Positions 1-52,792 of a stretch of 52,792 nucleotides of DNA are shown piece by piece; position 1 is the stretch's first letter, and the number at the start of each line of letters is the position of its first letter. The position numbers and the translations under genes are program-made. Source of the DNA: a virus (lineage: Duplodnaviria > Caudoviricetes). The stretch lies in IMG/VR virus record IMGVR_UViG_3300031659_000012, positions 1 through 52,792 of that record; one strand, 5' to 3'. A model generated the notes under the pieces. The model saw only the letters and a program-made list of their open reading frames with translations, was not told where the DNA came from and searched no databases.

Positions 1-794
1 CCGCTATATCAGATGCTTTAGCAGGGCTTGAAAATATTAGCACTGAAGAGGTGCAAGGTGTTGTTGACGACACAGTGGCAGAACTTACTGGTGATGTGGC
101 GGGGCTTACGGGTGATGTGGCGGGGCTTACTGGCGATGTAGATGCACTGAGTAATGACTTATCTGCTTTAGGGTTAGACCTTGATGAGGTAGCGAAGTTT
201 GTTGGTAAACCTGCGCGTAATGTTACAGAAACAGACGTTGACTTTGTAATTGATGCAATAGCGCAGGGGAATGTCAACGCGGAGTTAACAGCGCAGTATG
301 ATGTTACTGGAGACGGTATCGTTGACATACTAGACCAAAACCTGTTAACCGATACACTACAGGGTACTACTGACACTCCCCTTGCGGATACGTCTATGTT
401 TAATCCAGCCACAGGTCTTTACTTGCAGGCGGACCAAAATACGCAGGCTACGTTGGACGCCGCTGCCGACATGAACCAAGACATGAACCAAGATTTTGTT
501 ATGCAAATGGATAGAAACAACAAACAGCAGAATGTAAATCAACTTGCTGAAATGCTAGCAGGGGCTAACGATATAGGTGGACGGCAAGTAGTGACTACAC
601 CGGGAGATAAGGCACAGATAGATTACCTGTACGATATTAGCGGGGACAACATATTCGCTACGGAGGAACAAGCGGGGCTGTTTGGAAGTCCGTACGGCAC
701 AAAGCGTGGTCCAACAGGTGCTGGTAACCTTGCACAGGGTGGACAAGTTGAAGACGAAAATGGTAGACTACTAAGATTACTTGGAGAATTGTAA
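1..794 (+). CDS. 5'-truncated acidic virion/internal protein with heptad repeats and a dockerin/EF-hand-like Ca-binding motif
   Basis: Frame is open from position 3, upstream of the GTG at 51, so the gene starts before the window. Contains three LTGDVAG-like repeats, YDVTGDGIVDILD and a C-terminal LAQGG motif. Stop overlaps the next ATG (TAATG). Confidence 0.7.
   Translation, partial: AISDALAGLENISTEEVQGVVDDTVAELTGDVAGLTGDVAGLTGDVDALSNDLSALGLDLDEVAKFVGKPARNVTETDVDFVIDAIAQGNVNAELTAQYDVTGDGIVDILDQNLLTDTLQGTTDTPLADTSMFNPATGLYLQADQNTQATLDAAADMNQDMNQDFVMQMDRNNKQQNVNQLAEMLAGANDIGGRQVVTTPGDKAQIDYLYDISGDNIFATEEQAGLFGSPYGTKRGPTGAGNLAQGGQVEDENGRLLRLLGEL
84..146 (+). repeat. 21-bp in-frame tandem repeat x3 (LTGDVAG heptads)
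   Basis: cttactggtgatgtggcgggg / cttacgggtgatgtggcgggg / cttactggcgatgtagatgca. Confidence 0.85.
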
Positions 795-7400: not shown

Positions 7401-10400
7401 TTGCCAACGCAGTACAAAAATACTTTAATCAGTACCCTACGTTCACCGCCGCCTTAGACGCGATTATATACGATGTAAGTATGCAAATTCCTACTAGGAA
7501 AAAAGACGCTATCGAATACAAAGACAACGCTGACTTATCGCAGTTCTACACTGCGGACAAAGACAATAATCTACCTTCTATGGGCAGAGATAGCGCCCGT
7601 AAGATTACTGATTGGCTAACTTCTAAAGAGGCAAACATGTCTGTTGAGTTACAGAAATACGTAACAACAGAACTACAAAAAGGGAGTCAAGCTCGTGTTT
7701 CGCAGGCTAACTACCTAGCTGGAGACAGAGTAGTAAAAGCACGGTCAAAGTTAACCCCTGAAGAATTGGCGGATTTGGAAGTTATTAGCAACGAAGATTT
7801 CAACTTACCCGCAGAATTTGCAATAGACACACCGCTGCGTCCTTCTGTAAAAGCTGCCATCCTTGAGGGTGACTTAACGGGAGCGTTAAACGCACTCCGG
7901 TTTACTGCAGGATCAAAAGACATCGCACTTTTAGCAAAACGTCTTATGGAAAATATAGGTAATACAAAACTTATAACTAAAAAGAATCTTAAAACTGACG
8001 ATGGTTCTACACGTTTGGCAGGTTACTTTGATCCTGAGACCAACACGATAGCGCTAGACGAAAAAGCTGGTATCAATGCGCACACGCTGCTCCACGAAAT
8101 GTTGCACGCGGTTACGTCCGCTACAATAGCTAACAAGTCACACCCGCTAACCAAAAAATTAAACAGGATATTTGAGGGTGTTAAGGAGCAGTTGGCTGGA
8201 GAGTACGGTGTAACTAACTTAGACGAGTTCGTAGCAGAGGCTTTTGCTAACCCCGACTTCCAGACACAGTTAAAAACTACCACAGTAAACGGGGGCAACC
8301 CATTTCTTCGGTTAGTACGAGACATAGCTAATTACGTACGTACTTTCTTCGGACGCCCTACTGTATCTGAAACTTCTACATTTGATGCAGTGGACAAGCT
8401 GGTGCAGGAGATAATTGCACCGACTTACGATGGGCGGGCGGCTACTAAAATATACATGGAGGCTCAAACACCTAAAGGCGCGGCAGGAGTTATAAACAAT
8501 ATAGGCACCGCACCCAACGCTGTTAAAGTTACCACTAAAAAAGCGATGTACGACTATATACAAGAAGGTAGGAACTGGATGGGTAGCAAAGTGCCACTAC
8601 CCGCTAAGAAAGTATGGCTGAACTTACAACCTGTTAACATCTTAACAGCATTGTCGGAGTCACGTATCCCCAGAGCTAGTGAGCTTAACACCATAATAAA
8701 CAATATGAGTGCGGCCTTGCGCGGCAGGAATGAATCACTAGACCCGATTGTTAACGATCTGAGAGCCTTTAGAAAAAAATCGCCCAAGCTATACACCATC
8801 CTGCAATCTATGGTGCCTAACGCATCTAAAGAACGTATTGATCCACGCGAAGCTAACTTTGAAAAAGCCTACGGGCGCAAAGAGGGCGAAGAAGGTTATG
8901 ATCTAGTTAGAGCTAGGGAAGTCCACAAAAAACTTCGGGCGCAGTACGAAAGTTTAGCCGTTAAAAACGCGGATGGTACTGTAGATGCCACGGGGCAGAA
9001 GCTGTACAAAATTATAACCAACAACTTTGAGAAATCTTTGAACGACGTCATGGGTGCAATAGAAACAAACCTAGCGGCCACCATAGGGGACGTTACGGCG
9101 CGGAAGAGGGCAAGAGACAAACTGGCCGAGCTTTTGAACCGAGAGCGTGGGCGTATTAAACCGTTTGCTCCACTCACACGTTTTGGACCGCACCGTCTGG
9201 AGTACAACGCTCTCGACCCTGAAACAAACCAACCCGAAATGTTTGTAGAATATTTTAAAACAAGGGGACAGCTAGAGAAAGCCAAAGTAAAAGTTTTAGA
9301 ATACAACAAAAATTCGTTAGCTAAACTTCCCGCAAACGACCCAAGACGGGCGTATATCGTTGATAAAGCTGGTAACCCCGTTGGAATGCACGACGGTAAA
9401 GCCTCTGAGGTACGGGACTTTAGTGGCGCACCAAAAACCTCGTTTGTTTATGAGGTACTCCAAATATTAAATGCCAATGGCGCGGACAAGGCAACAGTTG
9501 ACCGTGTTGTAAACCTCGCCATTGACTCCATGCCAGAGCGTTCGTTTATGCAGTCGTTCCAAAAACGTAAAGACGTTCGTGGTTTCTTAGGAGATGTTAC
9601 TCCTACAGGGATGGCCGCAGAGGCATACGACCTTATAGATATGGTTCAGACCAAAGGACGTGATTACAACCGTCAACTTGTGCAGATGGAGTTTGGTGCC
9701 CAGCTAGAAATATTCCAACGCGATGTCTTAGGACTAGACGCAAAGAGAACAGACCCAACTACGATGTTGTACCGAGACAGGTTGGACCTAATTGTTAACT
9801 TCGCCAAGAGTCCTAATATCCCACGGTGGTCTCAATCACTCACGGCTGCAGGGTACGCATGGACTATGGGTTGGAACTTGTCTTCCGCTGCCATTACCAC
9901 CTTCGACGTGTTTATGAGTACGGCTCCACGCCTCATGGGCCGGTACGGTGACAGGGCTACTTTTAGGGCTATGGGTGCGGCTACATCTATTCTAGCGAAA
10001 AGTCCAAAAACTAAAATGGTTGCCGTAATGGACGAAAATGGCAACATGACCAAACGCAAAGTCAACACTGGGATGGCAGGGTTTTCTATAGGTAACTACG
10101 ACTTCAGTGACCCCGACCTCGACCCCAGAATAAAAGATTTAGAAATACTAGCCGAAGTTGCTACAGAGAACGCACAGATAAACCAGTCCTTGAACCAAGA
10201 AGAACTGGATATGAACAACGCTAAAGATGTTTTAGAGAAGATAAACTCTTTTACAAGTTTCTTGTTCCACCACTCCGAGCGTTACAACCGCGAAGTTGCA
10301 ATGACTGCTAACTACATGCTTGAAGTAGACCGCATGAAAGCAAAGAAGGGTAGCGCACTTACAGACCTCGAAAAACGTGAAGCCGCTGCAGTTGCCGTTA

Positions 10401-11443
10401 AAGAAACAGAATTTACTCTGGGTGCGACAGCATCAGCAGGGCGTCCTGTGTACTCGCAGTCATCGTATGGCAACGTGTTAATGTTGTTTAAGCGGTTTGC
10501 TATTAGTAAATACCACATGATGGCAACTATGACGAACGAAGCGTTCCAAGCAGGGGGCGATGCAGATACCGTAGCAAACCGTAAAATTGCACAGGGGCAG
10601 TTGGCGCGTTTTCTGATATCTACGGGGCTGTTTGCCGGTGTCGCGGGTATGCCGTTGCTGGGGGCGGTAGGGCAAATTTACAATATCTTCGTTGATGATG
10701 ATGAGGACGACTTTGATGCTATGCTCCGCAAGACTGTTGGCGAAGGGTTGTACGGCGGGGCCATAAACGCGGCTCTGGGTGTAGACGTTGCCAGCCGTAT
10801 CGGTATGAACAGCCTGCTGTACCGCCCACCAATTATTGATAAAGACCAATCACTATTCTACACTCTTATAGAACAGTTCGGTGGTCCCGTTGTAGGTATC
10901 GGGCTAAGTGTTGAACGTGGTTTTAAAGACGCCGCAGAAGGTGAGTATGCAAGGGCTGCCAAAGCTATAGCCCCCGCTGCGGTGCGCAACGTGCTAAAGG
11001 GTGGGGAGCAGCTTGCTACAGGTGAGGTACGAACTCGCAGAGGTGACGCCGTTGTTGAAGACATAGGTATCGCTCAGATACTCGCTCAAGCTGGCGGCTT
11101 CGCTAACGCTGATGTCAATAGACAATATGACATAAACAAGAACGAGCGTCGGAAGAATACTTACCTCGGTAAAAAACGTACATCTCTGCTACGCCAAGCA
11201 AACATCGCCGCCGCAAACGGGGATCGGAAAGCCTACAGAGATGCGCTTAGGGACATAAGAAAGTACAACAGCGGGTTGCCTCGTGATGCACGATCTAAAA
11301 ACCTTATTCTTCCAAAGACAATCGAACGGTCTCGTAAGGCATTTGATACACGAACAAGTAAGATGGTAGGTGGTATTGAGTACACACCTCTGATGCGCAG
11401 CAGCTTGGAAGAGTATGACCAAGGAATACAACTCTTTGACTAA
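4427..11443 (+). CDS. Giant polyvalent/ejection protein with zincin metallopeptidase (MPTase-like) and PLxRFG domains
   Basis: 2338 aa. Gly/Ala-rich hydrophobic N-terminus; AGYFDPETNTI...LLHEMLHA...LDEFVAEA zincin motif; FAPLTRFG matches the PLxRFG signature; hydrophobic helices near the C-terminus. Confidence 0.8.
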   Translation: MGIYTLDLDDGSQIEVEAPRDTPLRELLTIAAQQRVEASKPALVERQGERQAKIDKRLATEVVGGRDANTAIGRGIGRGIDSLQQNLGSATEGIGSVLGLEGLEKFGSEIALNNEAELQRAERFSTRLSDVDGVGSGLSAAGELVGESAPQMAQVAAGAAAGAAYGGGAGAAFFGIGAAPGAAIGAVVGGALAAIPLFFGGNRERQISAAEGDRTGVNEGAAFLTAVPQALMDSIFTMLGAKYVLGPLAKAAPAGQGLFTRAAKGAGVGAATEIPTEIGQAVLERAQAGLSITSAEALREYGEAGLAAGLLGGGLGGLGGAARRAGVPEAEPEALLQLPAPSAAELGSPVTQTEPLQITDQPPQLQITGPDDLGIQLDAGTGQATTRDQRIETGEQGLAGLVAENEKTKATAKRTTELVEQAKAELQNDGSITPATFRALKDSPINQVKAELENTQYQPLLSLIEGSPVDKRPLGTKPEEFTPPQGVQNKERLAKAVADAKSGVGAVAGKQDTEIKADLAREQTQDTSAKLRRSAADQLDADTDSLIAELDRTGSDTRTQAQTDLQKASALETVEGQRDTGRAKQSEATRTKILQDTVANAGDLKQPAALQRAFESALTAAGIGKATATPAEVASIEKASAIIVAKAPDRVTADMAPAPLPAVVDPRQTAMEAEVAPKPVEPIQQSLPTLGRKRDFGTAPAQETTAETTVEPKIVDAALFDKLGVPPSAPIRKRVMGKDFNDTEVRQQFATLAGNKNTSATVKTKINRELQATSEAQLDLPFAKTRATAKEKKPDVKTAEIKPKTSRDRVPTPKSNVGSKSAAAVPIATTTAKSPKKPTAPRTSGVGSPVVESGSTAGATRTKSDTLERSLSRDAAPGKQTAKTPAQPIPAELKEAKAKRVAAEKATTPRESLKFADQKSDAATKARAETVKTKEADAKQEAIFAAQDAVIQRQGNADSDLTAPQAPITASDKNKILKLAESKRTSAPRSRLANAVQKYFNQYPTFTAALDAIIYDVSMQIPTRKKDAIEYKDNADLSQFYTADKDNNLPSMGRDSARKITDWLTSKEANMSVELQKYVTTELQKGSQARVSQANYLAGDRVVKARSKLTPEELADLEVISNEDFNLPAEFAIDTPLRPSVKAAILEGDLTGALNALRFTAGSKDIALLAKRLMENIGNTKLITKKNLKTDDGSTRLAGYFDPETNTIALDEKAGINAHTLLHEMLHAVTSATIANKSHPLTKKLNRIFEGVKEQLAGEYGVTNLDEFVAEAFANPDFQTQLKTTTVNGGNPFLRLVRDIANYVRTFFGRPTVSETSTFDAVDKLVQEIIAPTYDGRAATKIYMEAQTPKGAAGVINNIGTAPNAVKVTTKKAMYDYIQEGRNWMGSKVPLPAKKVWLNLQPVNILTALSESRIPRASELNTIINNMSAALRGRNESLDPIVNDLRAFRKKSPKLYTILQSMVPNASKERIDPREANFEKAYGRKEGEEGYDLVRAREVHKKLRAQYESLAVKNADGTVDATGQKLYKIITNNFEKSLNDVMGAIETNLAATIGDVTARKRARDKLAELLNRERGRIKPFAPLTRFGPHRLEYNALDPETNQPEMFVEYFKTRGQLEKAKVKVLEYNKNSLAKLPANDPRRAYIVDKAGNPVGMHDGKASEVRDFSGAPKTSFVYEVLQILNANGADKATVDRVVNLAIDSMPERSFMQSFQKRKDVRGFLGDVTPTGMAAEAYDLIDMVQTKGRDYNRQLVQMEFGAQLEIFQRDVLGLDAKRTDPTTMLYRDRLDLIVNFAKSPNIPRWSQSLTAAGYAWTMGWNLSSAAITTFDVFMSTAPRLMGRYGDRATFRAMGAATSILAKSPKTKMVAVMDENGNMTKRKVNTGMAGFSIGNYDFSDPDLDPRIKDLEILAEVATENAQINQSLNQEELDMNNAKDVLEKINSFTSFLFHHSERYNREVAMTANYMLEVDRMKAKKGSALTDLEKREAAAVAVKETEFTLGATASAGRPVYSQSSYGNVLMLFKRFAISKYHMMATMTNEAFQAGGDADTVANRKIAQGQLARFLISTGLFAGVAGMPLLGAVGQIYNIFVDDDEDDFDAMLRKTVGEGLYGGAINAALGVDVASRIGMNSLLYRPPIIDKDQSLFYTLIEQFGGPVVGIGLSVERGFKDAAEGEYARAAKAIAPAAVRNVLKGGEQLATGEVRTRRGDAVVEDIGIAQILAQAGGFANADVNRQYDINKNERRKNTYLGKKRTSLLRQANIAAANGDRKAYRDALRDIRKYNSGLPRDARSKNLILPKTIERSRKAFDTRTSKMVGGIEYTPLMRSSLEEYDQGIQLFD

Positions 11444-23960: not shown

Positions 23961-25163
23961 TTACATCTCCCTTGATTTAATATGTACAGTTGTGCCCACG
24001 TCGGGCTTTTTGCGGGCGTTGTCCAAGATGCACCACAACACAGGCGTATTCCATGTGCCCCATCCGCGATACAAGTCACCATCTGTTAGGACGATACACG
24101 CTTGCGGTTTGATGCCATGCTCTTGCATATACTCAGGCACACACTCGACATCCGTACCGCCGCCACCTGCTGGCTTGGTTGACTTCACTAGATCATCTAG
24201 CTCGTGCATCTCATACGCTTCGTCACGACAGACCTTTGTGTCCCAGTACAACACGCGCACCTTGTTAGGTTTTACCGTGTCACACACAGACTTGACCTCA
24301 GACAAGAACGCAGACAACGCCACGTTACCGATAGAACCAGACATGTCGATAGCCACAACCAACTCATCGACCTGCTGACTGATACCAGATGGCATGTAGA
24401 TATTCGCACCTATGTACCGTCTGTTAGGACGTTTCCACGTAGAGTAGTCAGACCCTGCGCACGTAGTATGTATAAACTCGCGCAGTGTTTCACGCCAATC
24501 TATCTGTGGTTGCATGAGTTCTTCAAGGTTGCGATCACCACCGCTACCCATCTTACCCGCGATCAATGCGCCTTGGCGTACAGCCTCGTCGATCTCACGC
24601 GCTAGTTCGCGTATCTCGTCGGCGTCCATATCGGTTGCACCTTCCCAGTCGTGACTGTCGAACCCTTGTGGCCCAGCAGTTCCGCCGCCACCTCCATCCT
24701 CACCCTGTGGCTTGTTATCGTGTAAGTCCCCGAACACCTGCGCAGTGTCCCAGCCACGATACTTCTCGTCATAGCAACCACCTTCGGGTAACTTGATCCA
24801 CCCATCTGCACCGTATTCGTCCATGAGCTTGATGTTGATAACGTAGTCCATAGCCATGTTGGCAAGATGTGGGGCTATCTTGGATAGGTGTGCCCACGTT
24901 GTCAGGTGGCGGTATAGTTTGTGATAGTTCTCGTGCAGTACAAGAAACCGTAGCTCTGCATCGTTAAGACTATCCACAAACTCTGCACCGTACCACTCGT
25001 CACGCCCGTTGGTACAGGCTGTTGGCACCTTGGCATTGTCATGCTCAACGACACGATCACCGATCATCAGCACTGCTGACAACGCAGGAATCTTAGACAT
25101 AAGAGCGACGATTGTTTTGGGCACCCGCTGCTCTGGAGTAAGTTGTTTACCGATAGATAACAT
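23961..25163 (-). CDS. DUF2201-like metallopeptidase + VWA domain protein
   Basis: TACTNG, LHENYH (HExxH), N.A.D..IN, MIDAS DMSGS, GGGGTD, VLTDG. Confidence 0.88.
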   Translation of the reverse strand: MLSIGKQLTPEQRVPKTIVALMSKIPALSAVLMIGDRVVEHDNAKVPTACTNGRDEWYGAEFVDSLNDAELRFLVLHENYHKLYRHLTTWAHLSKIAPHLANMAMDYVINIKLMDEYGADGWIKLPEGGCYDEKYRGWDTAQVFGDLHDNKPQGEDGGGGGTAGPQGFDSHDWEGATDMDADEIRELAREIDEAVRQGALIAGKMGSGGDRNLEELMQPQIDWRETLREFIHTTCAGSDYSTWKRPNRRYIGANIYMPSGISQQVDELVVAIDMSGSIGNVALSAFLSEVKSVCDTVKPNKVRVLYWDTKVCRDEAYEMHELDDLVKSTKPAGGGGTDVECVPEYMQEHGIKPQACIVLTDGDLYRGWGTWNTPVLWCILDNARKKPDVGTTVHIKSREM

Positions 25164-46282: not shown

Positions 46283-47026
46283 ATGACAATACTATTAGAT
46301 GGTACAAACGGTGTAACAACAGCAGGTATAACTCTAGGGTCAACTGCTATTGCTTCCACAGGTGCTGAGATTAACATCCTAGATGGTGTAACTAGTACAG
46401 CCGCAGAGCTTAATATATTAGATGGGGTTACCAGTACAGCCGCAGAGCTTAATATATTAGATGGGGTAACTTCTACTACAGCAGAGCTTAATATACTTGA
46501 TGGGGTTACCAGTACAGCAGCAGAACTTAACATCCTAGATGGAGTCACCTCTACAGCGGCTGAACTTAACATCATGGATGGAGTTACAACTACCGCAGCA
46601 GAAATTAACTTAATAGACGGTGGCACTGCAAGAGGCACAACAGCCTTAGCTGACGGTGACGGTATACTTATTAATGACGCTGGAACAATGCGTATGACTA
46701 CAGTGCAAACTGTTAAAACATACATGGGTGGTAACCCTTACACAGCACAGTCTACATCCTCTAATGGTTACATTACATTTGTTGGGGGTATTATCATCCA
46801 GTGGGGTTATTTCTCCTCTGGTGATACTAGCGTTACAACCGTGACGTTTCCGATAGCTTTTCCAAACGCTTGTCATAGTGTTGCAGGACTTCACCGAGGT
46901 ACTTCTGGTGCTAACGATCACCGCAACGGGTGGTGTCTTACGGGCAGTCCCGGTACATCCTCTATGGCTATAAAGAACGTAACCGCTGCTACAGCCGCTT
47001 TTTACTGGATAGCAATAGGGCATTAA
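46283..47026 (+). CDS. Short tail fibre 1 (7 repeats + gp53-like C-terminal tip)
   Basis: NGY....GIIIQWG...VTFPIAFPNAC...YWIAIGH is a classic tail-fibre C-terminus. Confidence 0.85.
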   Translation: MTILLDGTNGVTTAGITLGSTAIASTGAEINILDGVTSTAAELNILDGVTSTAAELNILDGVTSTTAELNILDGVTSTAAELNILDGVTSTAAELNIMDGVTTTAAEINLIDGGTARGTTALADGDGILINDAGTMRMTTVQTVKTYMGGNPYTAQSTSSNGYITFVGGIIIQWGYFSSGDTSVTTVTFPIAFPNACHSVAGLHRGTSGANDHRNGWCLTGSPGTSSMAIKNVTAATAAFYWIAIGH

Positions 47027-47038
47027 GGAGTATTAAAA

Positions 47039-47422
47039 ATGAGATATGCACATATAAATGAGAACAACCGCCTTCTTGGCTGGTACGCTGACGAAGTACA
47101 TTCTACTATACCGACACCTAAAGTGGTTGTTACAGATGAACAATGGCAAACAGCATTAGATAATAATCACAACTCCATTAATGCAGACGGTTCCGGTTCG
47201 GTTGTAGACTTTTCAAATGATGAAGAAAAAGCGTTGTCAGTAAGGGAAAGTCGTGACAACATCCTAGTAACAGTTGTTGATCCTATTGCAGGTAATGCAC
47301 TGCGCTGGGCTGCATTAACGTCAGAGCAACGAACTGCATGGGCTACGTACAGAACCGCCCTTTTAGATGTACCTGCACAAGCTGGCTTTCCTAGTAGCAT
47401 TACATGGCCTACTGCGCCTTAA
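47039..47422 (+). CDS. Tail fibre assembly chaperone 1
   Basis: R..RD..L...W..YR.ALLDVPAQAGFP..I.WP..P. Confidence 0.85.
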   Translation: MRYAHINENNRLLGWYADEVHSTIPTPKVVVTDEQWQTALDNNHNSINADGSGSVVDFSNDEEKALSVRESRDNILVTVVDPIAGNALRWAALTSEQRTAWATYRTALLDVPAQAGFPSSITWPTAP

Positions 47423-47453
47423 AACATAAGAACTACAACACGGAGTATGAAAT

Positions 47454-48152
47454 ATGAGTAAAATAGCCCTTACACCAAATGCAAGTGGTAATGGTGTATT
47501 TACAATTACCGCACCAAACTCTGGTACGAATAGGGCTATTGCTCTACCCGATGCTGCGGGTACAATTCCACTACTAGCAGCCGCAAGTAACACAGCCATT
47601 ACATCCACACCAGCAGAGCTAAATATATTAGACGGTGTGACTAGCACAGCCGCAGAGCTTAATATCCTTGATGGAGTTACTAGTACTACTGCTGAATTAA
47701 ATATACTTGATGGAGTTACATCAACAGCCGCAGAACTAAACATCTTGGATGGTGTAACCTCTACGGCAGCAGAGCTTAACCTAATAGACGGTGGTACAGC
47801 CAGAGGTACAACTGCTGTAGCTGATGGCGATGGCATACTAATTAACGATGCCGGTACAATGAGAATGACTACAGTACAAACTGTTAAAACATACATGGGT
47901 GCTAGTACAACCTCTGGCGCTGTTGGGACGTATCAACTAGGCAGGCCACTCTCTAATGCCGCTTTTGCTATTGGTGCTACAACTAGTTCGTTTTATGCAT
48001 GGGCGCAGGCCCGTGAGGGGGGAGTTGCGAATTTTGAGGCGCAGCTGGTTGGTGCAAATACCGCTAGTCAGTCTGGTACTTGGAGGTGCATAAGTGGCGC
48101 TGCAGCTGCCAGCGGCCAAGGTTTCGCTGGCTTATGGGTAAGGATATCATAA
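47454..48152 (+). CDS. Short tail fibre 2 (5 repeats + distinct tip)
   Basis: GAVGTY...SGTWRC...GLWVRIS tip. Confidence 0.8.
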   Translation: MSKIALTPNASGNGVFTITAPNSGTNRAIALPDAAGTIPLLAAASNTAITSTPAELNILDGVTSTAAELNILDGVTSTTAELNILDGVTSTAAELNILDGVTSTAAELNLIDGGTARGTTAVADGDGILINDAGTMRMTTVQTVKTYMGASTTSGAVGTYQLGRPLSNAAFAIGATTSSFYAWAQAREGGVANFEAQLVGANTASQSGTWRCISGAAAASGQGFAGLWVRIS

Positions 48153-48547
48153 TGAGTATAACAATTACACAAATCCGCAATGCGGTATCAATGAACGCTG
48201 CTAACACAAGCATTGACGTTGAGATTAATCATCCAGACTACGGATGGATACCCTACACACTAGACCCTGCTGACACTGATATGACTATCAACAACGATGC
48301 AGTCATGGCCCTTATTGGTGCAGACTTTGATGCTTATGTTGCTCCTACTGATGCAGAGATAGCCGCAGCTTTAGCAATTAAAGTTCGTGCAAAACGAGAT
48401 GAACTAATTGCAGCCACTGATTGGACGGGCAACAGTGATGTGACTATGACTTCTGCCATGACCACATACAGGGCTGCATTACGGAATGTACCTGCACAAG
48501 CTGGGTTTCCTAATAGTATTACTTGGCCAACCTTGGGGGGATCATAA
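48152..48547 (+). CDS. Tail fibre assembly chaperone 2
   Basis: IDVEINHP.YGWIPYT; RAKRD.LI..TDW...YR.ALR.VPAQAGFP..I.WP. Confidence 0.85.
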   Translation: MSITITQIRNAVSMNAANTSIDVEINHPDYGWIPYTLDPADTDMTINNDAVMALIGADFDAYVAPTDAEIAAALAIKVRAKRDELIAATDWTGNSDVTMTSAMTTYRAALRNVPAQAGFPNSITWPTLGGS

Positions 48548-49461
48548 TGTCCACACTACGAACAGACGCAATCGTTGACCTAGCGGGTAACGGTAAGCCT
48601 GACTTGAGTAACGGCGTTCAGATTGGTGGCGTTGCTGTTACCTCTACAGCCGCAGAGCTTAATATCCTTGATGGTGTGACCAGTACAGCCGCTGAACTTA
48701 ATATTCTTGACGGTGTAACTTCTACCGCTGCTGAACTTAATATTCTTGACGGTGTAACCAGCACCGCTGCTGAGTTAAACATCCTAGATGGAGTTACAGC
48801 CACTGCCGCTGAAATAAACCTTATTGATGGTGGAACGGCACGAGGTACTACAGCAGTAGCTGATGGTGATGGTTTTTTAACTAATGATGGCGGTACTATG
48901 AGGATGACCAAAGTTGAGACTTTGGCTACTTATATGGGTACTAAAGTTGGCGGCGGGGCAAGGGTTTTTGTTGCCTCATCTGGCGTTGTTAGCGGCGTTG
49001 CATCTATTGTATTCACTCAATTTGATTCAAGCAAGTTTGATTACTACGTATTTACAATGCTATCTGTGATTCCCGCAACAAATGAGGCTACTTTATTCTG
49101 CCAGACTAGCACTGATGGCGGTACTAATTTTGCAACTGATAGTGGAAATTACAGACATAGCGGTAATACACATAGTATTGGGATGAATGTGATAGACACC
49201 GCAATAGGTAGCTCATCTGGCCAAGACGGAGTGTTTGGGGATTTCTCTTTATTTGAGCCTGAAACCTCTGGCAAGCAGACAAGAGGTTTAAGCAATTGTA
49301 TGGCTATTCATAGTGCCTCCACTCATAGAGTTGCATCAACAGACGTCAGCTGTGCGTCATCTAGAGCATCTGCTGAAGATAATAACGCTGTCAGGTTTAT
49401 TATGAGCGCTGGCAATATAGGGTCAGGTGAAATTGTAATGTTTGGCATAGCCAATGCTTAA
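48547..49461 (+). CDS. Short tail fibre 3 (5 repeats + distinct tip)
   Basis: Shared hinge, then a beta-sandwich-like tip ending SG.I..G....FGI. Confidence 0.8.
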   Translation: MSTLRTDAIVDLAGNGKPDLSNGVQIGGVAVTSTAAELNILDGVTSTAAELNILDGVTSTAAELNILDGVTSTAAELNILDGVTATAAEINLIDGGTARGTTAVADGDGFLTNDGGTMRMTKVETLATYMGTKVGGGARVFVASSGVVSGVASIVFTQFDSSKFDYYVFTMLSVIPATNEATLFCQTSTDGGTNFATDSGNYRHSGNTHSIGMNVIDTAIGSSSGQDGVFGDFSLFEPETSGKQTRGLSNCMAIHSASTHRVASTDVSCASSRASAEDNNAVRFIMSAGNIGSGEIVMFGIANA

Positions 49462-49487
49462 AAATAATAAAATAAAGGAAGTGCATT

Positions 49488-49766
49488 ATGCCCAGATTTA
49501 ATATGGTAGATGGTGTGAGGGTACAGTGCAGTGCTGAAGACGAAACTTACTTTGACGCCTTAGATCAAACACATACTGACACAGCAGTAGCTCGTGCATC
49601 TGCTGCTGTTCGTAAAGAACGAGATGCCTTAATTGCAGCTACTGATTGGTGGGCTTTAGGAGACAGATCAATAACAGATGCACAAACTGCGTATAGACTT
49701 GCCTTACGTAATGTACCTGCACAGGCTGGGTTTCCTAACAGCATTACATGGCCGACTAAGCCATGA
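49488..49766 (+). CDS. Tail fibre assembly chaperone 3
   Basis: RKERD.LI..TDWW...YR.ALR.VPAQAGFP..ITWP.KP. Confidence 0.85.
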   Translation: MPRFNMVDGVRVQCSAEDETYFDALDQTHTDTAVARASAAVRKERDALIAATDWWALGDRSITDAQTAYRLALRNVPAQAGFPNSITWPTKP

Positions 49767-50020
49767 ACATTAACTGGACAGTCGTAACAATAGCAGGTGC
49801 TTTATTATTACAAGGAGCCGCTGTAGTGTGGGCTGTGTCAGCAATGGTGTTAGACATTAGGTACAATCGTATGGACATATCAGAGATGCGTTTAGATTCG
49901 TCTAGACTAGCTGATGAAATACATGAGAATGATATAATGATAGCACGTATTGATGCTAATGTTACTGCAATAAAAGAAGCGTTAAACGTAGTAACATTAA
50001 ATCATAGTTCAAGGAATTAA
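49763..50020 (+). CDS. Single-TM coiled-coil membrane protein (possible holin or lysis accessory)
   Basis: N-terminal hydrophobic helix followed by a coiled coil. Confidence 0.6.
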   Translation: MNINWTVVTIAGALLLQGAAVVWAVSAMVLDIRYNRMDISEMRLDSSRLADEIHENDIMIARIDANVTAIKEALNVVTLNHSSRN

Positions 50021-50022
50021 AA

Positions 50023-50586
50023 GTGACACGAATAATTGCCGCTATAGTACTTCTCTTGGTAGGAAGTTTAACCACAGCACAGGCTGCGGACACAGTGTAT
50101 AGTGACAGCAATGTCACCTCCTCTGGTACTATGGACACCACGGTTCGCAGCCCCCCGCCCTCTGCAATCTCTCCACAGATCAGCACTGGGACGGGCGACC
50201 TTTGCACGATTGGCGTATCTGGTGCAGTCCAAACCCAAATTCTTGGAATATCCGTAGGCAAGGTCTACACGGAAGAGAACTGTTTGCGGTTAAAGAATGC
50301 TAAAACCATGTACGATATGGGCATGAAAGTGGCGGCTGTGTCTGTAATGTGCCAAGATTCAAACGTAAAACTTGCGATGAAAAATGCTGGAACTCCCTGC
50401 CCAATCAACGGATTGATAGGCGATGCTGCGACGATGGCTTGGGAGGAACAAGAGCTTATCGAACCCGAAACATATGCGGATGATGGTGAGGGCGCTATAA
50501 AAGGTATGATAAAAAATGTGGATAAAGACACAAAGTTCGGTGTGGGTGCTGTCCTTGGCGCTCTTGGCCTCCTCCTCCTCCTCTGA
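50023..50586 (+). CDS. Exported protein with signal peptide, paired Cys and C-terminal TM anchor
   Basis: MTRIIAAIVLLLVGSLTTAQA signal; PPPSAISP..DLC...ENC; hydrophobic C-terminus. Confidence 0.75.
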   Translation: MTRIIAAIVLLLVGSLTTAQAADTVYSDSNVTSSGTMDTTVRSPPPSAISPQISTGTGDLCTIGVSGAVQTQILGISVGKVYTEENCLRLKNAKTMYDMGMKVAAVSVMCQDSNVKLAMKNAGTPCPINGLIGDAATMAWEEQELIEPETYADDGEGAIKGMIKNVDKDTKFGVGAVLGALGLLLLL

Positions 50587-51388
50587 GCCGTTCACGTACA
50601 GCGCCACGGGAAACGCGGCCCACGGGGCGCTAAACTGGTCAATGGGTGCTATCTTACCTGATATACCGGGATTAGACATTAACGGATTAATCTACCGATA
50701 CCGCACAGTAAAAAATACTGAAGACGCCATGAAAGTCCACGTCAGCAATCTAAAGGCCCAAGGCGGGGGGTACATTTTTAGAGAGACAGATGATTGGAGC
50801 GGCGTCCCCGGAAACAGAATTACAAAATCATTTGCCTTGGGAAACATTCCCAGCGCGAATTGGGGTAATGGCTCCATCTCTGTTGAAGGTACGGGCAGCG
50901 TTCAGGATGCGGTTGTGGTTTACAGCTATAGAGTTGACGCATGTTACGATCCACAATTAAACTCTAACTGCGTTGGTTACGTTAAGCCCGCGCCAGCCGT
51001 AGTTAAAGTCGAAGTTTATGACGCGCTTGAAGACGATGTTGTCCTTGTAACTTTAGACAGCAACACCAATTTTAAATACGATCAGGACGGCAACCGTATC
51101 GTTGACGACGAAGAGGAAGAGCAAGAAACAAGGCTGGAGATGGGGCTTACCGCTTCGGCTAATGCGTTAACAATGCTTCGAGTTGAGGGGCAATCTGCTA
51201 TAATAGACGCAATTAATCTAAACACTAGTTTGGCTACCTACTATAATTCCAGTATAAACGGTGGTACATACACAGAAGGGTACGCCCTAGCCGATGCGAC
51301 TCTGCCAGACAACGCACGGGGATTGAGAAATAATCTGGCGCAACAGCTACTGCACGAAGAAATGGTGCAGATGCAATATGGTGAATGA
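50516..51388 (+). CDS. Exported protein with signal-like N-terminus
   Basis: Hydrophobic VWVLSLALLA stretch, beta-rich domain, CYDPQ....C.GY, acidic helical C-terminus. Confidence 0.7.
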   Translation: MWIKTQSSVWVLSLALLASSSSSEPFTYSATGNAAHGALNWSMGAILPDIPGLDINGLIYRYRTVKNTEDAMKVHVSNLKAQGGGYIFRETDDWSGVPGNRITKSFALGNIPSANWGNGSISVEGTGSVQDAVVVYSYRVDACYDPQLNSNCVGYVKPAPAVVKVEVYDALEDDVVLVTLDSNTNFKYDQDGNRIVDDEEEEQETRLEMGLTASANALTMLRVEGQSAIIDAINLNTSLATYYNSSINGGTYTEGYALADATLPDNARGLRNNLAQQLLHEEMVQMQYGE

Positions 51389-51885
51389 GGTTTGATATGA
51401 AGTATTCTGTTTTAGTTTTCTCTGTTTGCGCTCTGCCTGCGCTTGCGGATGTTAATATCGTTGGAAACGTGGCGGCCAAGTGCATAATCCAGACAGACAC
51501 TAGCGGCGTTTACGGAAACCCGACAGCTACAAAACTCAGCACTCTACCTGCTGACGGTGGAGTAGTCCCGATTGTTCGCTACGATGTAGCTGTAGCAAAT
51601 TATTACACTGCTAAAATTACTCATCCATCAGCGTTTTCATCCTCACCAAGTCTGAGTGATACAGTTTCTTGGACCGGGGCAAGCTCAGTGGCTCAAACTT
51701 CAGTGGCTGGTATGGCAGCATATGACGCCGCAAAAGTTGTGTATGGCTCTACGACTAATTTTAATTTGACGATTGCTGGAAGCACTTGGTTTAAGACCGC
51801 GTCTACCGCTACTTACGGTGTGAGCAAAGCGTTTCCCGGTGGAAGTTATACCGCCATAGTTCAGGCAGAGTGCATTGCTAATTAA
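51385..51885 (+). CDS. Exported pilin/fimbrial-subunit-like protein
   Basis: Signal peptide ending ALA; VNIVGNVAAKC N-terminal strand; FPGGSYTAIVQAEC C-terminal strand. Confidence 0.6.
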   Translation: MRFDMKYSVLVFSVCALPALADVNIVGNVAAKCIIQTDTSGVYGNPTATKLSTLPADGGVVPIVRYDVAVANYYTAKITHPSAFSSSPSLSDTVSWTGASSVAQTSVAGMAAYDAAKVVYGSTTNFNLTIAGSTWFKTASTATYGVSKAFPGGSYTAIVQAECIAN

Positions 51886-52261
51886 AATAATCTTAACGCT
51901 GTTTGGTCTGTCTTCCGCTTTGGCGGCACATGAAATGACGCCTGCCTATCCTGATCTCAAACCTTCATATGTTAAAGATGTGATGAAGGCGGACATGTCT
52001 TTGTTCAACTACAGAGATGATGTTCAGTATTATCAAATAGCCGTCTTTGATATTGATTGGGTCAACGTACCTTTTGCTTCAAAATACAGGATTATGAAAG
52101 TAAAACATGAAAAGCGGCAGGATTTTTCGGTCTACATAAGAAAGGCTGACGTAGCTCGTGCTGTGTATTTATGCACAACTTCTAAAATGCTAAAAGAGTC
52201 TGGCGTTAAAACTGTAATCTCGTCTAGGATATGTTCGAGGGTTGATGGAGCAAAGCCGTGA
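51875..52261 (+). CDS. Exported PapD-like pilus chaperone-like protein
   Basis: Signal peptide, then MTP.Y..L......MSLFN.......YQIAVFD, resembling the PapD N-terminal Ig fold. Confidence 0.5.
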   Translation: MLIKIILTLFGLSSALAAHEMTPAYPDLKPSYVKDVMKADMSLFNYRDDVQYYQIAVFDIDWVNVPFASKYRIMKVKHEKRQDFSVYIRKADVARAVYLCTTSKMLKESGVKTVISSRICSRVDGAKP

Positions 52262-52692
52262 AGTGGTATGCAACCTTCTGGATTGTGTCATTTTGTATCT
52301 TTTTTGGCGTACTTGAGGCGAGGTCAGAGAGTAATTCTCTTGCATTGCAGTTGCCCAGCGCCCCAATGAACTATCAATCTGACAGGTTTCGGGCAGGAGA
52401 TTTGGATTGCAGTAACGCTGTCGGCGGTGGCACAACCCTTGAGTGGGGCGTCACTGGGGTTATAACAGATATCGGCAATGGAGTAGGGCAGGGGAAAGAC
52501 GTTGGGCTGTATGCGCGTGTCGTTATTCCGTTGGATAAACCTAAGAGCAGGGTGAACTGTGATACTCTTTTCCAACTTGAAATAAAACACAGGCGGCTTG
52601 AAATTGAAATGCTTCGAGCCGAACTGGAACAATTAAAAAGATTGCAGGAAACAGGTGAGAATAGTGACGGCGAACTGGAGTTTGAAAATTGA
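52258..52692 (+). CDS. Exported protein with Cys-flanked beta-hairpin and C-terminal coiled coil
   Basis: Signal peptide; DC...LEWGVTG...VGLYARVVIPL...NC; coiled coil. Confidence 0.7.
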   Translation: MKWYATFWIVSFCIFFGVLEARSESNSLALQLPSAPMNYQSDRFRAGDLDCSNAVGGGTTLEWGVTGVITDIGNGVGQGKDVGLYARVVIPLDKPKSRVNCDTLFQLEIKHRRLEIEMLRAELEQLKRLQETGENSDGELEFEN

Positions 52693-52792
52693 CAGACTTA
52701 ACCAAGGTTGCGGACAATATTGATGGCCTTGCGGATCGTGAGATCAAGGCTGGAGGGTTCAAGTTTACCTTCGCGTCAGTATTTGCAATACT
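52689..52792 (+). CDS. 3'-truncated hypothetical (membrane?) protein
   Basis: TTG start after GGAG, overlapping the previous stop; frame open to the window end. Confidence 0.5.
   Translation, partial: MTDLTKVADNIDGLADREIKAGGFKFTFASVFAI

What the first reader, a model, noticed from the sequence alone, without database searches (positions are those of the whole stretch)
50023..52792. Phage-encoded operon of exported proteins resembling a fimbrial pilin + chaperone system with no usher visible
Seen: five consecutive, mostly overlapping genes with N-terminal signal-like peptides and paired cysteines, which is unusual because virion proteins assemble in the cytoplasm. 51385-51885 has the layout of a chaperone-usher pilin: an alternating N-terminal strand ending in Cys and a C-terminal G-x-Y strand. 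51875-52261 resembles a single PapD-like Ig domain. No ~800-aa usher is present in the window. Inference: the phage may build a surface filament or envelope complex on infected cells, for aggregation, superinfection exclusion or grazing defence. This would be analogous to, but distinct from, the curli csgF/csgG genes of marine myophages.
Basis: partly seen in the sequence, partly recalled or inferred. Interest (0 to 1): 0.88.

Follow-up and report, generated by a model that had tools for sequence, protein, structure and literature searches.

The report
Phage-encoded pilin and mini-chaperone cassette
A marine phage carries a run of exported-protein genes, two of which are predicted to fold and dock like a bacterial fimbrial subunit and its periplasmic chaperone, although no phage has been reported to carry such a pair and no outer-membrane usher is present.

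Summary
A crude hydrophobicity/cleavage-site rule flagged 6 of 65 ORFs in the contig, and all six are contiguous (49763-52692). The five proteins of the finding keep even numbers of conserved cysteines.

AlphaFold2 models are confident: P4 (51385-51885) pLDDT 89.5, P5 (51875-52261) pLDDT 91.4.
- P4's best PDB matches are chaperone-usher and other donor-strand pilins, but weakly (best E 2.9e-3).
- P5's matches are almost all fimbrial chaperones (FaeE, FimC, Caf1M, SafB, PapD; 24 hits at E<=1e-3).

A complex prediction puts P5's last strand between P4's first and last strands, parallel to the last. Score 0.83, best control 0.00; the mark was reached by 58 of 80 solved complexes and 2 of 110 mismatched pairs.

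P5 is a single domain. No usher was found in the contig or in 5 related records.

The cassette is a composite:
- P2+P3 recur in pelagiphages.
- P4+P5+P6 recur in 76 Vibrio phage records.

No sequence family matches. Filament formation, surface exposure and function are untested, and P2, P3 and P6 remain unexplained.

Verdict: a new, abundant, phage-borne variant of the donor-strand chaperone/pilin principle, supported only by computation.

The parts
49763..50020 (+). P1, 85 aa: N-terminal transmembrane-like segment followed by a helical-looking tail. It lies next to the cassette but is not part of the conserved set.
   Evidence: ORF. Flagged hydrophobic. Found in only 6 of 32 related loci, at 99-100% identity, while P2-P6 in those same loci are 58-89% identical. 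No family match.
50023..50586 (+). P2, 187 aa. Signal peptide (..TTAQA|AD), a Ser/Thr-rich stretch, the invariant motif SPPPSAI, a nearly invariant four-cysteine domain, and a C-terminal hydrophobic anchor. This is module A.
   Evidence: Alignment of 16 sequences. phrog_20531 at E 1.5e-16. tblastn matches in 15 phage records: pelagiphages HTVC115P, HTVC023P and Mosig, roseophages, Ralstonia RSP15 and Achromobacter JWAlpha. The Atlas shows only viral hypothetical clusters. No PDB sequence match.
50516..51388 (+). P3, 290 aa. Signal peptide encoded in the stretch that also encodes P2's C-terminal anchor in another frame, a beta-rich-looking N-terminal part, an acidic linker, and a conserved C-terminal part ending ..MVQMQYGE. 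This is module A. An alternative start lies at residue 9.
   Evidence: Alignment of 19 sequences. The Atlas holds the sequence from residue 9 on. The C-terminal 35 residues resemble the C-terminus of HTVC115P gp53, which follows the P2 homologue there (blastp E 0.001 against a database of 22 proteins). No family or PDB sequence match.
51385..51885 (+). P4, 166 aa: pilin-like Ig-fold subunit. Signal peptide (..PALA|DV), a conserved free N-terminal alternating strand (residues 22-32), Cys33, and a C-terminal G-x-Y strand with Cys163. This is module B.
   Evidence: AlphaFold2 pLDDT 89.5. By my reading of the entry titles, 22 of the 46 listed Foldseek PDB rows are donor-strand pilins or fibre subunits; best E is 2.9e-3. 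The interface with P5 uses residues 30-37 and 153-166. The family has 4035 clusters at E<=1e-3 among 8000 candidates scored, none named.
51875..52261 (+). P5, 128 aa: single PapD-like Ig domain, a chaperone-like partner of P4. Signal peptide with nearly invariant A18|H19, and a C100-C120 pair. Its C-terminal strand (residues 114-122) is the predicted donor strand. This is module B.
   Evidence: AlphaFold2 pLDDT 91.4. Foldseek PDB gives 24 hits at E<=1e-3; of the 20 listed, 19 are fimbrial chaperone chains by title and 1 is a PapD-like domain of CEP192. Complex score 0.83 against best control 0.00. The family has 166 clusters at 50% identity, and the 150 listed are all 181 aa or shorter.
52258..52692 (+). 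P6, 144 aa. N-terminal signal peptide or signal anchor, a Gly-rich two-cysteine part, and a C-terminal coiled-coil-like helix ending EFEN. Always follows P5; role unknown. This is module B.
   Evidence: Alignment of 18 sequences. phrog_37374 at E 2.6e-6. tblastn matches in 76 Vibrio phage records. No PDB sequence match below E 0.02.
52689..52792 (+). Start of a seventh conserved gene ('gene7'), TTG start, cut by the contig end. In relatives it is 152-223 aa: an N-terminal transmembrane segment, a long coiled coil, and a conserved C-terminus ..LQRALDNPLAD.
   Evidence: The 33 residues at the window end are 94-97% identical to the N-termini of the L010, L012 and L017 proteins. A homologue follows P6 in 31 of 32 viral loci; the 32nd ends inside P6. 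HTVC115P gp49 is a relative.

Best explanation
The last 2.8 kb of this incomplete marine podovirus contig is a late-operon cassette of Sec-exported proteins. It is built from two modules.

Module B (P4, P5, P6) is a minimal donor-strand system.
- P4 is an Ig-like pilin-type subunit whose fold lacks its last strand.
- P5 is a one-domain PapD-like periplasmic chaperone. It caps P4 by inserting its C-terminal strand between P4's first and last strands.
- P4 keeps a conserved, unengaged N-terminal alternating strand. The most likely next step is head-to-tail polymerisation by donor-strand exchange into a fibre, without an usher.

Module A (P2, P3, with gene7 downstream) is a separate set of envelope proteins of unknown role. 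They may anchor or position the product.

By position, the cassette is probably made late, together with the tail fibres. I infer that it remodels the envelope or surface of the infected cell. The purpose could be shielding receptors against superinfection and against loss of progeny on debris, or aggregating cells.

What is shown by prediction: the folds and the P4-P5 docking. What is inferred: export, polymerisation, location and purpose.
For: Export signals are confined to this cluster: 6 of 65 ORFs were flagged, all contiguous. They are kept in relatives, along with the paired cysteines.

The P4 model has pLDDT 89.5. Its top PDB matches include CfaB, Caf1, CS17, the PapG pilin domain, FimG, CsuA/B, PapK, PapA and archaeal CanA.

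The P5 model has pLDDT 91.4. It gives 24 PDB hits at E<=1e-3, led by FaeE, FimC, Caf1M, SafB, DraB, SfaE and PapD, with TM 0.5-0.62 on the query.

Complex prediction:
- Scores were 0.83, 0.81 and 0.83 in three runs; the best of 3 controls was 0.00.
- The runs agree in at least 94% of contacts, and partner pLDDT is at least 88.
- The mark was reached by 58 of 80 solved complexes and 2 of 110 mismatched pairs. These counts hold only roughly, because my own alignments were used.
- P4 158-165 pairs in ascending register with P5 115-121, and P4 35 touches P5 117 and 119.
- P4 22-29 is not in the confident interface, yet I25 and G27 are invariant and V23, V29 and A31 nearly so.

Gene order P2-P6 is kept in 27 of 32 IMG/VR loci; the other 5 are cut by a contig end and keep the remaining genes in order.

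The order P4-P5-P6 is also kept in 5 of 5 examined Vibrio phages of three different kinds.

No usher was found in the contig or in 5 related records; the E. coli control did match.

Phage pVco-14 has its own lysozyme, holin, i-spanin and overlapped o-spanin elsewhere in its genome, so module B is not its spanin.
Against: There is no sequence-level membership.
- Pfam, NCBIfam and PDB sequence searches give nothing for P4 or P5.
- PapD_N is hit by 1 of 75 P5 relatives at E 0.0096, and no pilin family by any of 80 P4 relatives.

P4's structural matches are weak: none at E<=1e-3, TM 0.35-0.5, and rmsd often above 6 A.

Chaperone-pilin complexes are well represented among solved structures, so the complex score may reflect likeness learned by the model rather than binding (caveat stated).

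Polymerisation was not tested, because only one complex job was allowed.

Other gaps:
- No route across the outer membrane is identified.
- P2, P3 and P6 have no fold assigned.
- In 15 related loci a GH19-type endolysin and small membrane proteins follow gene7, so a role in lysis is not excluded.
- RNA evidence is only three short low-depth contigs in RNA libraries, which can also carry DNA.
Confidence: 0.55

Rival explanations
1. P4 and P5 form a stable, non-polymerising periplasmic heterodimer, or a complex with P6. This Ig-like complex binds a host envelope component, for example to block the phage's own receptor from inside (superinfection exclusion). No fibre is made.
For: Only the heterodimer was predicted. 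No usher or other pore was found. No paralogous minor pilins were found: P3 and P6 are unrelated to P4 by profile comparison (probability 1.6% and 8%). Only 1 longer protein carries a P4-like part. The module always sits next to large fibre-like genes. From recall, exclusion genes such as T5 llp or cor also sit there.
Against: P4's N-terminal segment is strongly conserved, has alternating hydrophobic residues, and lies outside the predicted interface. That is hard to explain if it is not a donor strand or another binding element.
Confidence: 0.2
2. The cassette belongs to the lysis machinery. It forms an envelope-spanning or outer-membrane-disrupting complex that works with gene7 (i-spanin-like topology), the neighbouring small membrane proteins and the endolysin.
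For: gene7 follows P6 in 31 of 32 viral loci. A GH19-like endolysin follows in 15 loci and an EF-hand/TM protein in 19. In Vibrio phage Bennett a holin and an endolysin lie about 600 nt downstream. In Vibrio phages a small lipoprotein gene overlaps the 3' end of the P6 homologue, which is a spanin-like layout. P2 has a signal peptide plus a C-terminal anchor, which from recall is the topology of unimolecular spanins. No holin, endolysin or spanin was recognised in this contig.
Against: pVco-14 has a complete separate lysis cassette with i-spanin and o-spanin about 11 kb away from module B. No lipobox ORF is conserved in the marine loci. The chaperone and pilin folds and the docking are not features of any known spanin. 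The contig is only 85% complete and is cut just after the cassette, so its lysis genes may simply be missing.
Confidence: 0.12
3. The likeness is a generic Ig-sandwich resemblance amplified by model memory. P4 and P5 are unrelated exported accessory proteins that do not bind each other.
For: No sequence homology to any fimbrial family. P4's structural hits are weak. The caveat on memory is stated. BFVD and PDB also list other Ig-like proteins for P5 at lower rank.
Against: Two adjacent genes retrieve the two complementary partners of one system independently. All three controls scored 0.00 against 0.81-0.83. The two genes stay adjacent, in the same order, from marine podoviruses to three kinds of Vibrio phage, at about 20-bit profile similarity.
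Confidence: 0.08
4. They are virion components, or are attached to virions after lysis: disulfide-bonded fibres or decorations that fold in the periplasm.
For: The cassette sits inside the structural gene block, directly after the tail fibres and their assembly chaperones. In Queuovirinae phages it lies between the head and neck genes.
Against: From general knowledge, tailed-phage virions assemble in the cytoplasm. None of the proteins hits a PHROG annotated as structural at a convincing E-value; the best are 0.06-0.08. No proteomic data were found or searched in depth.
Confidence: 0.05

Closest known systems
Chaperone-usher pili of Gram-negative bacteria: PapD/FimC/Caf1M/FaeE chaperones with their pilins, including the archaic Csu and alternate CFA/I classes
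   Same: Both have Sec-exported partners encoded side by side. The subunit is an Ig-like fold lacking its last strand, with an N-terminal alternating extension and a C-terminal G-x-Y strand. The chaperone has a PapD-like Ig domain whose last strand is predicted to lie between the subunit's first and last strands, parallel to the last.
   Different: Here the chaperone has one domain, not two (128 aa; relatives 181 aa or shorter). There is no usher. No sequence match to any Pfam fimbrial family. No paralogous minor pilins or adhesin were recognised. The genes are carried by lytic-looking tailed phages rather than bacteria: only 8 loci turned up in 185,579 species genomes, all on MAG contigs of inconsistent taxa.
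Chaperone-free donor-strand fibres: archaeal cannulae (CanA), Pyrobaculum bundling pili, Bacillus TasA
   Same: Ig-like or jelly-roll subunits polymerise by donor strands without an usher. CanA and the bundling pilin are among P4's structural hits (ranks 12, 13 and 43). Papers were seen only as search listings or abstracts (PMC12518558, PMC9674648).
   Different: Those systems have no dedicated PapD-like chaperone. Here one is encoded next to the subunit and is predicted to cap it.
Phage-encoded curli (type VIII secretion) genes of HTVC023P-type and myovirus pelagiphages
   Same: Marine phages related to this one (portal 40-44% identical to HTVC023P and 023Pt_psg01) carry exported fibre-assembly genes. 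The authors propose these act in aggregation or superinfection defence (PMC9599517, passages read).
   Different: That is a different machinery: CsgA/B amyloid subunits, the CsgG pore and CsgF. No Csg family matches P1-P6 at E<=1. The curli set includes its own outer-membrane pore, whereas none is identified here.
Spanins (Rz/Rz1-type and unimolecular)
   Same: Both are exported envelope proteins encoded beside holin and endolysin genes in many relatives. gene7 has the topology of an i-spanin (N-terminal TM plus coiled coil), and P2 has a signal peptide plus a C-terminal anchor. The spanin topologies are from recall.
   Different: No conserved lipoprotein partner in the marine loci. P4 and P5 have Ig folds with pilin/chaperone likeness. 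pVco-14 carries module B in addition to a canonical spanin pair.

Membership tests
Fimbrial periplasmic chaperone (PapD family) | N-terminal PapD-like Ig domain | tested here: met
   The P5 model (pLDDT 91.4) gives 24 PDB hits at E<=1e-3. By entry title, 19 of the 20 listed are fimbrial chaperone chains. TM on the query is 0.5-0.62.
Fimbrial periplasmic chaperone (PapD family) | Second (C-terminal) Ig domain forming the boomerang cleft | tested here: not met
   P5 is 128 aa and about 110 aa when mature. A search with no length filter found 166 clusters, and all 150 listed are 181 aa or shorter.
Fimbrial periplasmic chaperone (PapD family) | Sequence match to Pfam PapD_N (PF00345) | tested here: not met
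   No hit for the window protein at E<=1. Of 75 relatives, 1 hit at E 0.0096, below the cut-off. No match in the six-frame search of the contig at E<=10.
Fimbrial periplasmic chaperone (PapD family) | Donor strand (G1) inserted between the subunit's A and F strands, parallel to F | tested here: met
   By prediction only. P5 115-121 pairs in ascending register with P4 158-165, and P4 35 touches P5 117 and 119. Score 0.83 against best control 0.00. The result may partly reflect model memory.
Fimbrial periplasmic chaperone (PapD family) | Conserved basic pair anchoring the subunit's C-terminal carboxylate (Arg8/Lys112 in PapD; numbering from recall) | tested here: inconclusive
   R47 is nearly invariant and lies in the interface, as does the P4 C-terminal residue 166. 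K104 is invariant only among close relatives. No residue-level superposition was possible.
Chaperone-usher pilin | Ig-like fold lacking the last strand, with a groove between the first and last strands | tested here: inconclusive
   The fold resembles pilins, but weakly (best E 2.9e-3, TM 0.35-0.5). The groove is implied by where P5's strand sits. Model coordinates could not be inspected.
Chaperone-usher pilin | N-terminal extension with alternating hydrophobic residues, used for donor-strand exchange | tested here: inconclusive
   The motif is present and conserved (V23, I25, G27, V29, A31) and is free in the predicted complex. Exchange itself was not tested.
Chaperone-usher pilin | Sequence match to a fimbrial Pfam family (Fimbrial, SCPU, CS1-type, Caf1 and others) | tested here: not met
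   0 of 80 family members hit any pilin family at E<=1. A PDB profile search gave one chance hit at E 1.
Chaperone-usher pathway as a system | Outer-membrane usher (about 800 aa, PF00577) encoded with the chaperone | tested here: not met
   0 of 1 (own contig) and 0 of 5 related records at E<=10, including records estimated 100%, 100% and 95% complete and the complete Vibrio phage Bennett genome; the E. coli control matched. Of 52 ORFs of 350 aa or more in the related loci, 2 have a hydrophobic N-terminus; neither was examined further.
Curli / type VIII secretion | CsgG, CsgF, CsgE or curlin-repeat domains | tested here: not met
   No such Pfam family at E<=1 for P1-P6.
Two-component spanin | Outer-membrane lipoprotein partner (lipobox) encoded within or beside the i-spanin gene | tested here: not met
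   No conserved lipobox ORF in the window cassette or in loci L010, L012, L017, L027 and L029. The Vibrio phage modules do have a small lipoprotein after the P6 homologue, but pVco-14 has a separate canonical pair.

The most novel reading that the evidence does not exclude
Tailed phages of marine bacteria carry a self-contained, usher-independent donor-strand fibre system. It consists of a one-domain PapD-like chaperone, a pilin that polymerises in or on the envelope of the infected cell, and a conserved third protein (P6, with gene7 or a small lipoprotein) that anchors or releases it.

The system travels with receptor-binding fibre genes. It protects the infected cell and the progeny by covering receptors, or by aggregating cells.

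This would be the smallest known chaperone-pilin machine and the first one in a virus. It would also be very common in the sea.
Probability: 0.35. Interest if true: 0.9.

Novelty: new variant of a known kind. Interest (0 to 1): 0.8.

Why it matters
The P4 family alone has more than 4,000 clusters at 90% identity, none with a name or Pfam domain. The cassette DNA turns up in marine metagenomes of at least 13 studies. Cultured Vibrio phages carry the core trio as PHROGs of unknown function.

Assigning this dark matter to the donor-strand chaperone/pilin principle would do three things:
- Give a testable function to an abundant viral gene set.
- Show that a single PapD-like domain can suffice as a chaperone.
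- Raise the question of how a fibre is built without an usher.

It would also extend the idea, so far resting on phage curli genes, that marine phages give infected cells new surface fibres. Cultured carriers make it directly testable.

Tried and rejected
**Nucleotide and single-sequence searches**
- Nucleotide search of the cassette against phage records: no match.
- tblastn of P4 against phage records: no match at E<=0.01. The Vibrio homologues were found only through P6 and then by profiles.

**Family and structure look-ups that gave nothing usable**
- Pfam, NCBIfam and PADLOC on P1-P6.
- PDB sequence-profile searches for all five proteins.
- ESM Atlas for P3 (no usable hit, no model) and for P2 (only viral hypothetical clusters, no model).

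**Paralogy and origin**
- I tested whether P3 or P6 are paralogues of P4 or P5. hhalign probabilities were 1.6-8%, so this was rejected.
- A bacterial origin or host operon is rejected as unsupported. The scan of species genomes gave 8 loci, all on MAG contigs labelled with mutually inconsistent taxa, which is most simply phage DNA binned by mistake.

**The contig as a circle**
- Rejected. There is no terminal repeat, the end and the start are in different frames, and the end cuts gene7.

**Lysis genes in this contig**
- Homologues of the relatives' endolysin and small membrane proteins were sought: none found.

**Transcription signals and RNA**
- Promoter and terminator scans were at chance level: 13 against 12.5 expected, and 5 against 5.2.
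- Only three short contigs (160-206 nt, depth 2.4-4.1) from RNA libraries of two studies lie on P3 and on the P3/P4 junction. The rest of the cassette had no cover. This shows neither transcription nor its absence.

**Viral structure library**
- BFVD search with P5 gave two unnamed viral proteins at E<=1e-3 and otherwise generic Ig-like proteins.

**Literature**
- Searches for a phage-borne chaperone-usher-like pilin or chaperone found none.
- A preprint on envelope proteins of huge phages has 0 occurrences of usher, pilin, PapD, fimbri- or curli.

**Not available**
- Supplementary files of papers were not consulted.

Full report
**What the window is**

The window is a whole record of 52,792 bases. 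It is classed as a linear virus contig and is about 85% complete by CheckV.

It encodes a terminase, an 828-aa portal, a major head protein, a DNA polymerase, a helicase and a primase. The portal is 40-44% identical to those of Pelagibacter phages HTVC023P and HTVC027P, phage 023Pt_psg01 and Roseobacter phages CRP-901 and CRP-902. It is therefore a marine podovirus-like phage whose host is unknown.

There is no terminal repeat. The two ends do not join in frame, and the 3' end cuts a gene.

**Immediate surroundings**

Upstream of the finding lie three successive pairs of genes on the + strand. Each pair is a repeat-rich tail fibre followed by a small protein with a Pfam Phage_tail_APC domain (a tail-fibre assembly chaperone): 46283-47422, 47454-48547 and 48523-49766.

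Then come P1 (49763-50020), P2 (50023-50586), P3 (50516-51388), P4 (51385-51885), P5 (51875-52261), P6 (52258-52692) and the first 33 codons of a seventh gene (from 52689). Each overlaps or abuts the next.

Promoter-like and terminator-like sites are at chance level here. Nothing therefore separates the cassette from the late structural genes.

The other end of the contig holds large proteins without export signals, including a 2338-aa protein whose C-terminal part matches a DarB-like PHROG.

**Checking the observation**

A crude rule of my own (an N-terminal hydrophobic decamer plus small residues at -3/-1) flagged 6 of 65 ORFs. All six are P1-P6.

In 32 related IMG/VR loci the N-terminal segments vary in sequence. 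They stay hydrophobic and end in Ala-x-Ala-like sites.

Each mature protein keeps conserved cysteines, mostly in pairs. This fits folding in the periplasm.

P3's signal peptide is encoded in the same 70 bases that encode P2's C-terminal hydrophobic anchor in another frame.

SignalP was not available, so cleavage is inferred.

**Conservation and distribution**

All five genes P2-P6 are present in the same order in 27 of 32 viral loci. The other five loci are cut by a contig end and keep the remaining genes in order. Identities run from about 33% to 97%.

The seventh gene follows P6 in 31 of 32 loci; the 32nd ends inside P6.

The flanks differ between loci. The carriers include records of 53, 35 and 32 kb estimated 95-100% complete. 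So the cassette moves among different phages.

The family sizes are large:
- A profile of P4 found 4035 clusters at E<=1e-3 among 8000 candidates scored. None has a name or a Pfam domain, and many come from Tara and other marine sets.
- A profile of P5 found 166 clusters at 50% identity.

Near-identical DNA of the cassette is held by marine or seawater metagenome runs of at least 13 studies.

In 185,579 species genomes only 8 loci were found. All are on MAG contigs labelled with taxa as disparate as Rhodobacteraceae, Saprospiraceae, Melainabacteria and Methanobacteriota. I read these as phage contigs that were binned by mistake.

**The cassette is a composite of two modules**

*Module A (P2 and P3).* P2's four-cysteine domain occurs in 15 phage records: pelagiphages HTVC115P, HTVC023P, HTVC033P, HTVC202P, Baldr and Mosig, roseophages, Ralstonia RSP15 and Achromobacter JWAlpha.

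In HTVC115P the P2 homologue (gp54) is followed by a 466-aa protein whose C-terminus resembles P3's. Four genes further on comes a gene7 homologue (gp49). No P4, P5 or P6 is present there.

*Module B (P4, P5 and P6).* P6 matches 76 Vibrio phage records. In 5 of 5 that I examined, the three upstream-to-downstream genes best match my profiles of P4, P5 and P6 in that order. The five are PS14A.1, D93, K251 g3, Bennett and pVco-14, which represent an 84-kb siphovirus group, T5-like Thalassavirus and Queuovirinae.

The profile E-values, against a small database, were:
- P4: 2.6e-7 to 4.7e-3.
- P5: 3.3e-10 to 4.3e-3.
- P6: 1.5e-15 to 4.3e-10 in four of the five. In D93 the annotated CDS is in another frame, but tblastn finds the match.

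These Vibrio phage genes belong to PHROGs 25895, 25455 and 37374, all of unknown function. The window's P5 and P6 had already touched two of those PHROGs weakly.

In the Vibrio phages the trio always follows a homologous protein of about 800 aa without a signal peptide (phrog_10818). It is followed by a small lipoprotein (phrog_16916). P2 and P3 are absent there.

**Folds**

*P4.* With an 80-sequence alignment, AlphaFold2 gave a mean pLDDT of 89.5, an all-beta model with one short helix.

Foldseek against the PDB gave no hit at E<=1e-3. The list is nevertheless led by CfaB (E 2.9e-3), Caf1, CS17, the pilin domain of PapG, FimG and the archaeal cannula protein CanA. CsuE, CsuA/B, PapK and PapA come further down.

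By my reading of the entry titles, 22 of the 46 listed rows are donor-strand pilins or fibre subunits. TM-scores are only 0.35-0.5.

*P5.* With a 75-sequence alignment, the model has pLDDT 91.4.

Foldseek gave 24 PDB hits at E<=1e-3. Of the 20 listed, 19 are fimbrial chaperones (FaeE, FimC, Caf1M, SafB) and one is a PapD-like domain of CEP192. DraB, SfaE and PapD follow just below. TM on the query is 0.5-0.62, and the targets are about twice P5's length.

So P5 corresponds to one domain of a two-domain chaperone. Every one of the 150 listed relatives is 181 aa or shorter.

In the viral structure library only two unnamed proteins reach E<=1e-3.

**Docking**

Results:
- The verdict was that the model supports binding but does not show it.
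- Scores were 0.83, 0.81 and 0.83; the best of 3 controls was 0.00.
- The mark was reached by 58 of 80 solved complexes and 2 of 110 mismatched pairs. These counts hold only roughly, because my own alignments were used.
- The runs agree in at least 94% of contacts, and partner pLDDT is at least 88.

The confident interface joins P4 30-37 and 153-166 with P5 19-25 and 107-122. P4 158-165 runs in ascending register along P5 115-121, so the two strands are parallel. P4 35 touches P5 117 and 119.

From established knowledge of PapD-PapK, FimC-FimH and Caf1M-Caf1, this is the geometry of donor-strand complementation. In those complexes the chaperone's G1 strand lies between the subunit's A and F strands, parallel to F.

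P4 22-29 is outside the confident interface. That segment is among the best conserved parts of the protein and has an alternating pattern: V23, I25, G27, V29, A31. This is what a donor strand for exchange would look like.

Such complexes are well represented among solved structures. The score therefore shows likeness and may owe something to memory.

**What is not there**

There is no sequence-level link to fimbrial families:
- Pfam and NCBIfam gave nothing.
- PDB profile searches gave nothing.
- PapD_N was hit by 1 of 75 P5 relatives at E 0.0096.
- No pilin family was hit by any of 80 P4 relatives.

There is no usher. PF00577 gave 0 matches at E<=10 in the contig and in 5 related records, while E. 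coli matched as a control.

No paralogous pilins were found:
- P3 and P6 are unrelated to P4 and P5 by profile comparison.
- Only one longer protein in the large database has a P4-like part.

No fold could be obtained for P2, P3, P6 or gene7.

**Lysis as a rival**

In relatives, gene7 has a transmembrane segment, a coiled coil and a conserved C-terminus. It is followed by an EF-hand/TM protein in 19 loci and by an endolysin in 15. That endolysin looked GH19-like to my eye; NCBIfam gave only a peptidoglycan-binding-type C-terminal match.

In Vibrio phage Bennett a holin and an endolysin lie just downstream.

No lysis gene was recognised in this contig. The contig breaks exactly where relatives have their lysis genes, so they may lie in the missing 15%.

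Against a lysis role for module B:
- pVco-14 has a lysozyme, a holin, an i-spanin and an unannotated overlapped lipoprotein ORF that looks like an o-spanin at 1.5-2.9 kb. Module B lies at 13.7-15.0 kb, between head and neck genes.
- The marine loci have no conserved lipobox ORF.

I keep lysis as a rival, mainly for module A and gene7.

**Mechanism I think most likely**

1. Late in infection the genes are transcribed together with the tail-fibre genes. This is inferred from position.
2. The proteins cross the inner membrane by Sec and form disulfides. This is inferred.
3. P5 caps P4's groove. This is predicted.
4. P4's free N-terminal strand displaces P5 from another P4, and a fibre grows. This is inferred and was not tested.
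5. P6, always the next gene, and gene7 or the small lipoprotein may anchor, nucleate or release the fibre. This is speculation.

The module always sits beside large fibre-like genes, here and in three other phage kinds. I therefore favour a role matched to the receptor: shielding it against superinfection and against loss of progeny on debris. Aggregation, as proposed for phage curli (PMC9599517, passages), is an alternative.

**Novelty**

The principle is known. The context and architecture are not: a tailed phage, a one-domain chaperone and no usher.

Three full-text searches found no report of a phage chaperone-usher-like pilin or chaperone. A recent preprint on envelope proteins of huge phages does not mention them.

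The closest precedent in phages is the curli gene set. I could not see supplementary files, and subscription journals are not in the library, so an earlier mention cannot be excluded.

**Verdict**

The functional reading remains open.

- Confidence that P4 and P5 are an exported donor-strand chaperone-subunit pair: about 0.55.
- Confidence that a fibre is built: about 0.35.
- Interest: 0.8.

Noticed in passing
window 1-794 and 52689-52792: The contig is linear and about 85% complete. There is no terminal repeat, and the end and start do not join in frame. The 3' end cuts gene7, and the 5' end starts inside an ORF with GDVAGLT repeats and a weak dockerin-like match.
   Followed up: partly
window 46283-49766: Three tandem pairs of genes, each a tail-fibre protein followed by a Phage_tail_APC chaperone. 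The fibre proteins carry 4-6 copies of a 12-residue repeat (AELNILDGVTST) and have different C-terminal domains; one is Gp53-like_C.
   Followed up: partly
window 49763-50020 versus L002, L004-L008: P1 is 99-100% identical in six loci where the adjacent P2-P6 are only 58-89% identical. This marks a sharp mosaic boundary between P1 and P2.
   Followed up: no
window 51929-51952 (P5 residues 19-26): The predicted mature N-terminus of P5 is nearly invariant (A|HEMTP.YP), with His as its first residue. This strand touches P4 34-35 in the predicted complex. A metal-binding role for the His was not tested.
   Followed up: no
window 4427-11443: A 2338-aa protein without recognised Pfam domains. Its C-terminal 400-600 residues match PHROGs that include a DarB-like antirestriction family. 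It is probably an ejected internal virion protein.
   Followed up: no
L048 (Vibrio phage pVco-14) 2599-2859: An unannotated 86-aa ORF with a lipobox (..LLIGC|S) overlaps the 3' end of pVco14_007 (N-terminal TM plus coiled coil) and contains pVco14_008. It looks like an overlapped o-spanin/i-spanin pair.
   Followed up: partly
L043-L047 (Vibrio phages), genes before and after the P4-P5-P6 homologues: A protein of about 800 aa without a signal peptide (phrog_10818, 23-32% identical between phage kinds) always precedes the trio. A small lipoprotein (phrog_16916, ..C-T-x-N-x-x-I-D-T-D-Y-A) and a protein of about 70 aa (phrog_27736) follow it. In PS14A.1 a longer reading of the P6 homologue has a lipobox-like LAAC.
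   Followed up: partly
L010 9830-11414 and 18 other loci: Downstream of gene7, many relatives have a protein of about 100 aa with an EF-hand-like DxDxDG motif and a C-terminal membrane segment, then a small membrane protein, then an endolysin with a C-terminal peptidoglycan-binding-type repeat. This is a lysis block that the window lacks.
   Followed up: partly
window 23961-25163 (- strand): A 400-aa protein with DUF2201_N metallopeptidase-like and VWA-like domains among the early genes.
   Followed up: no
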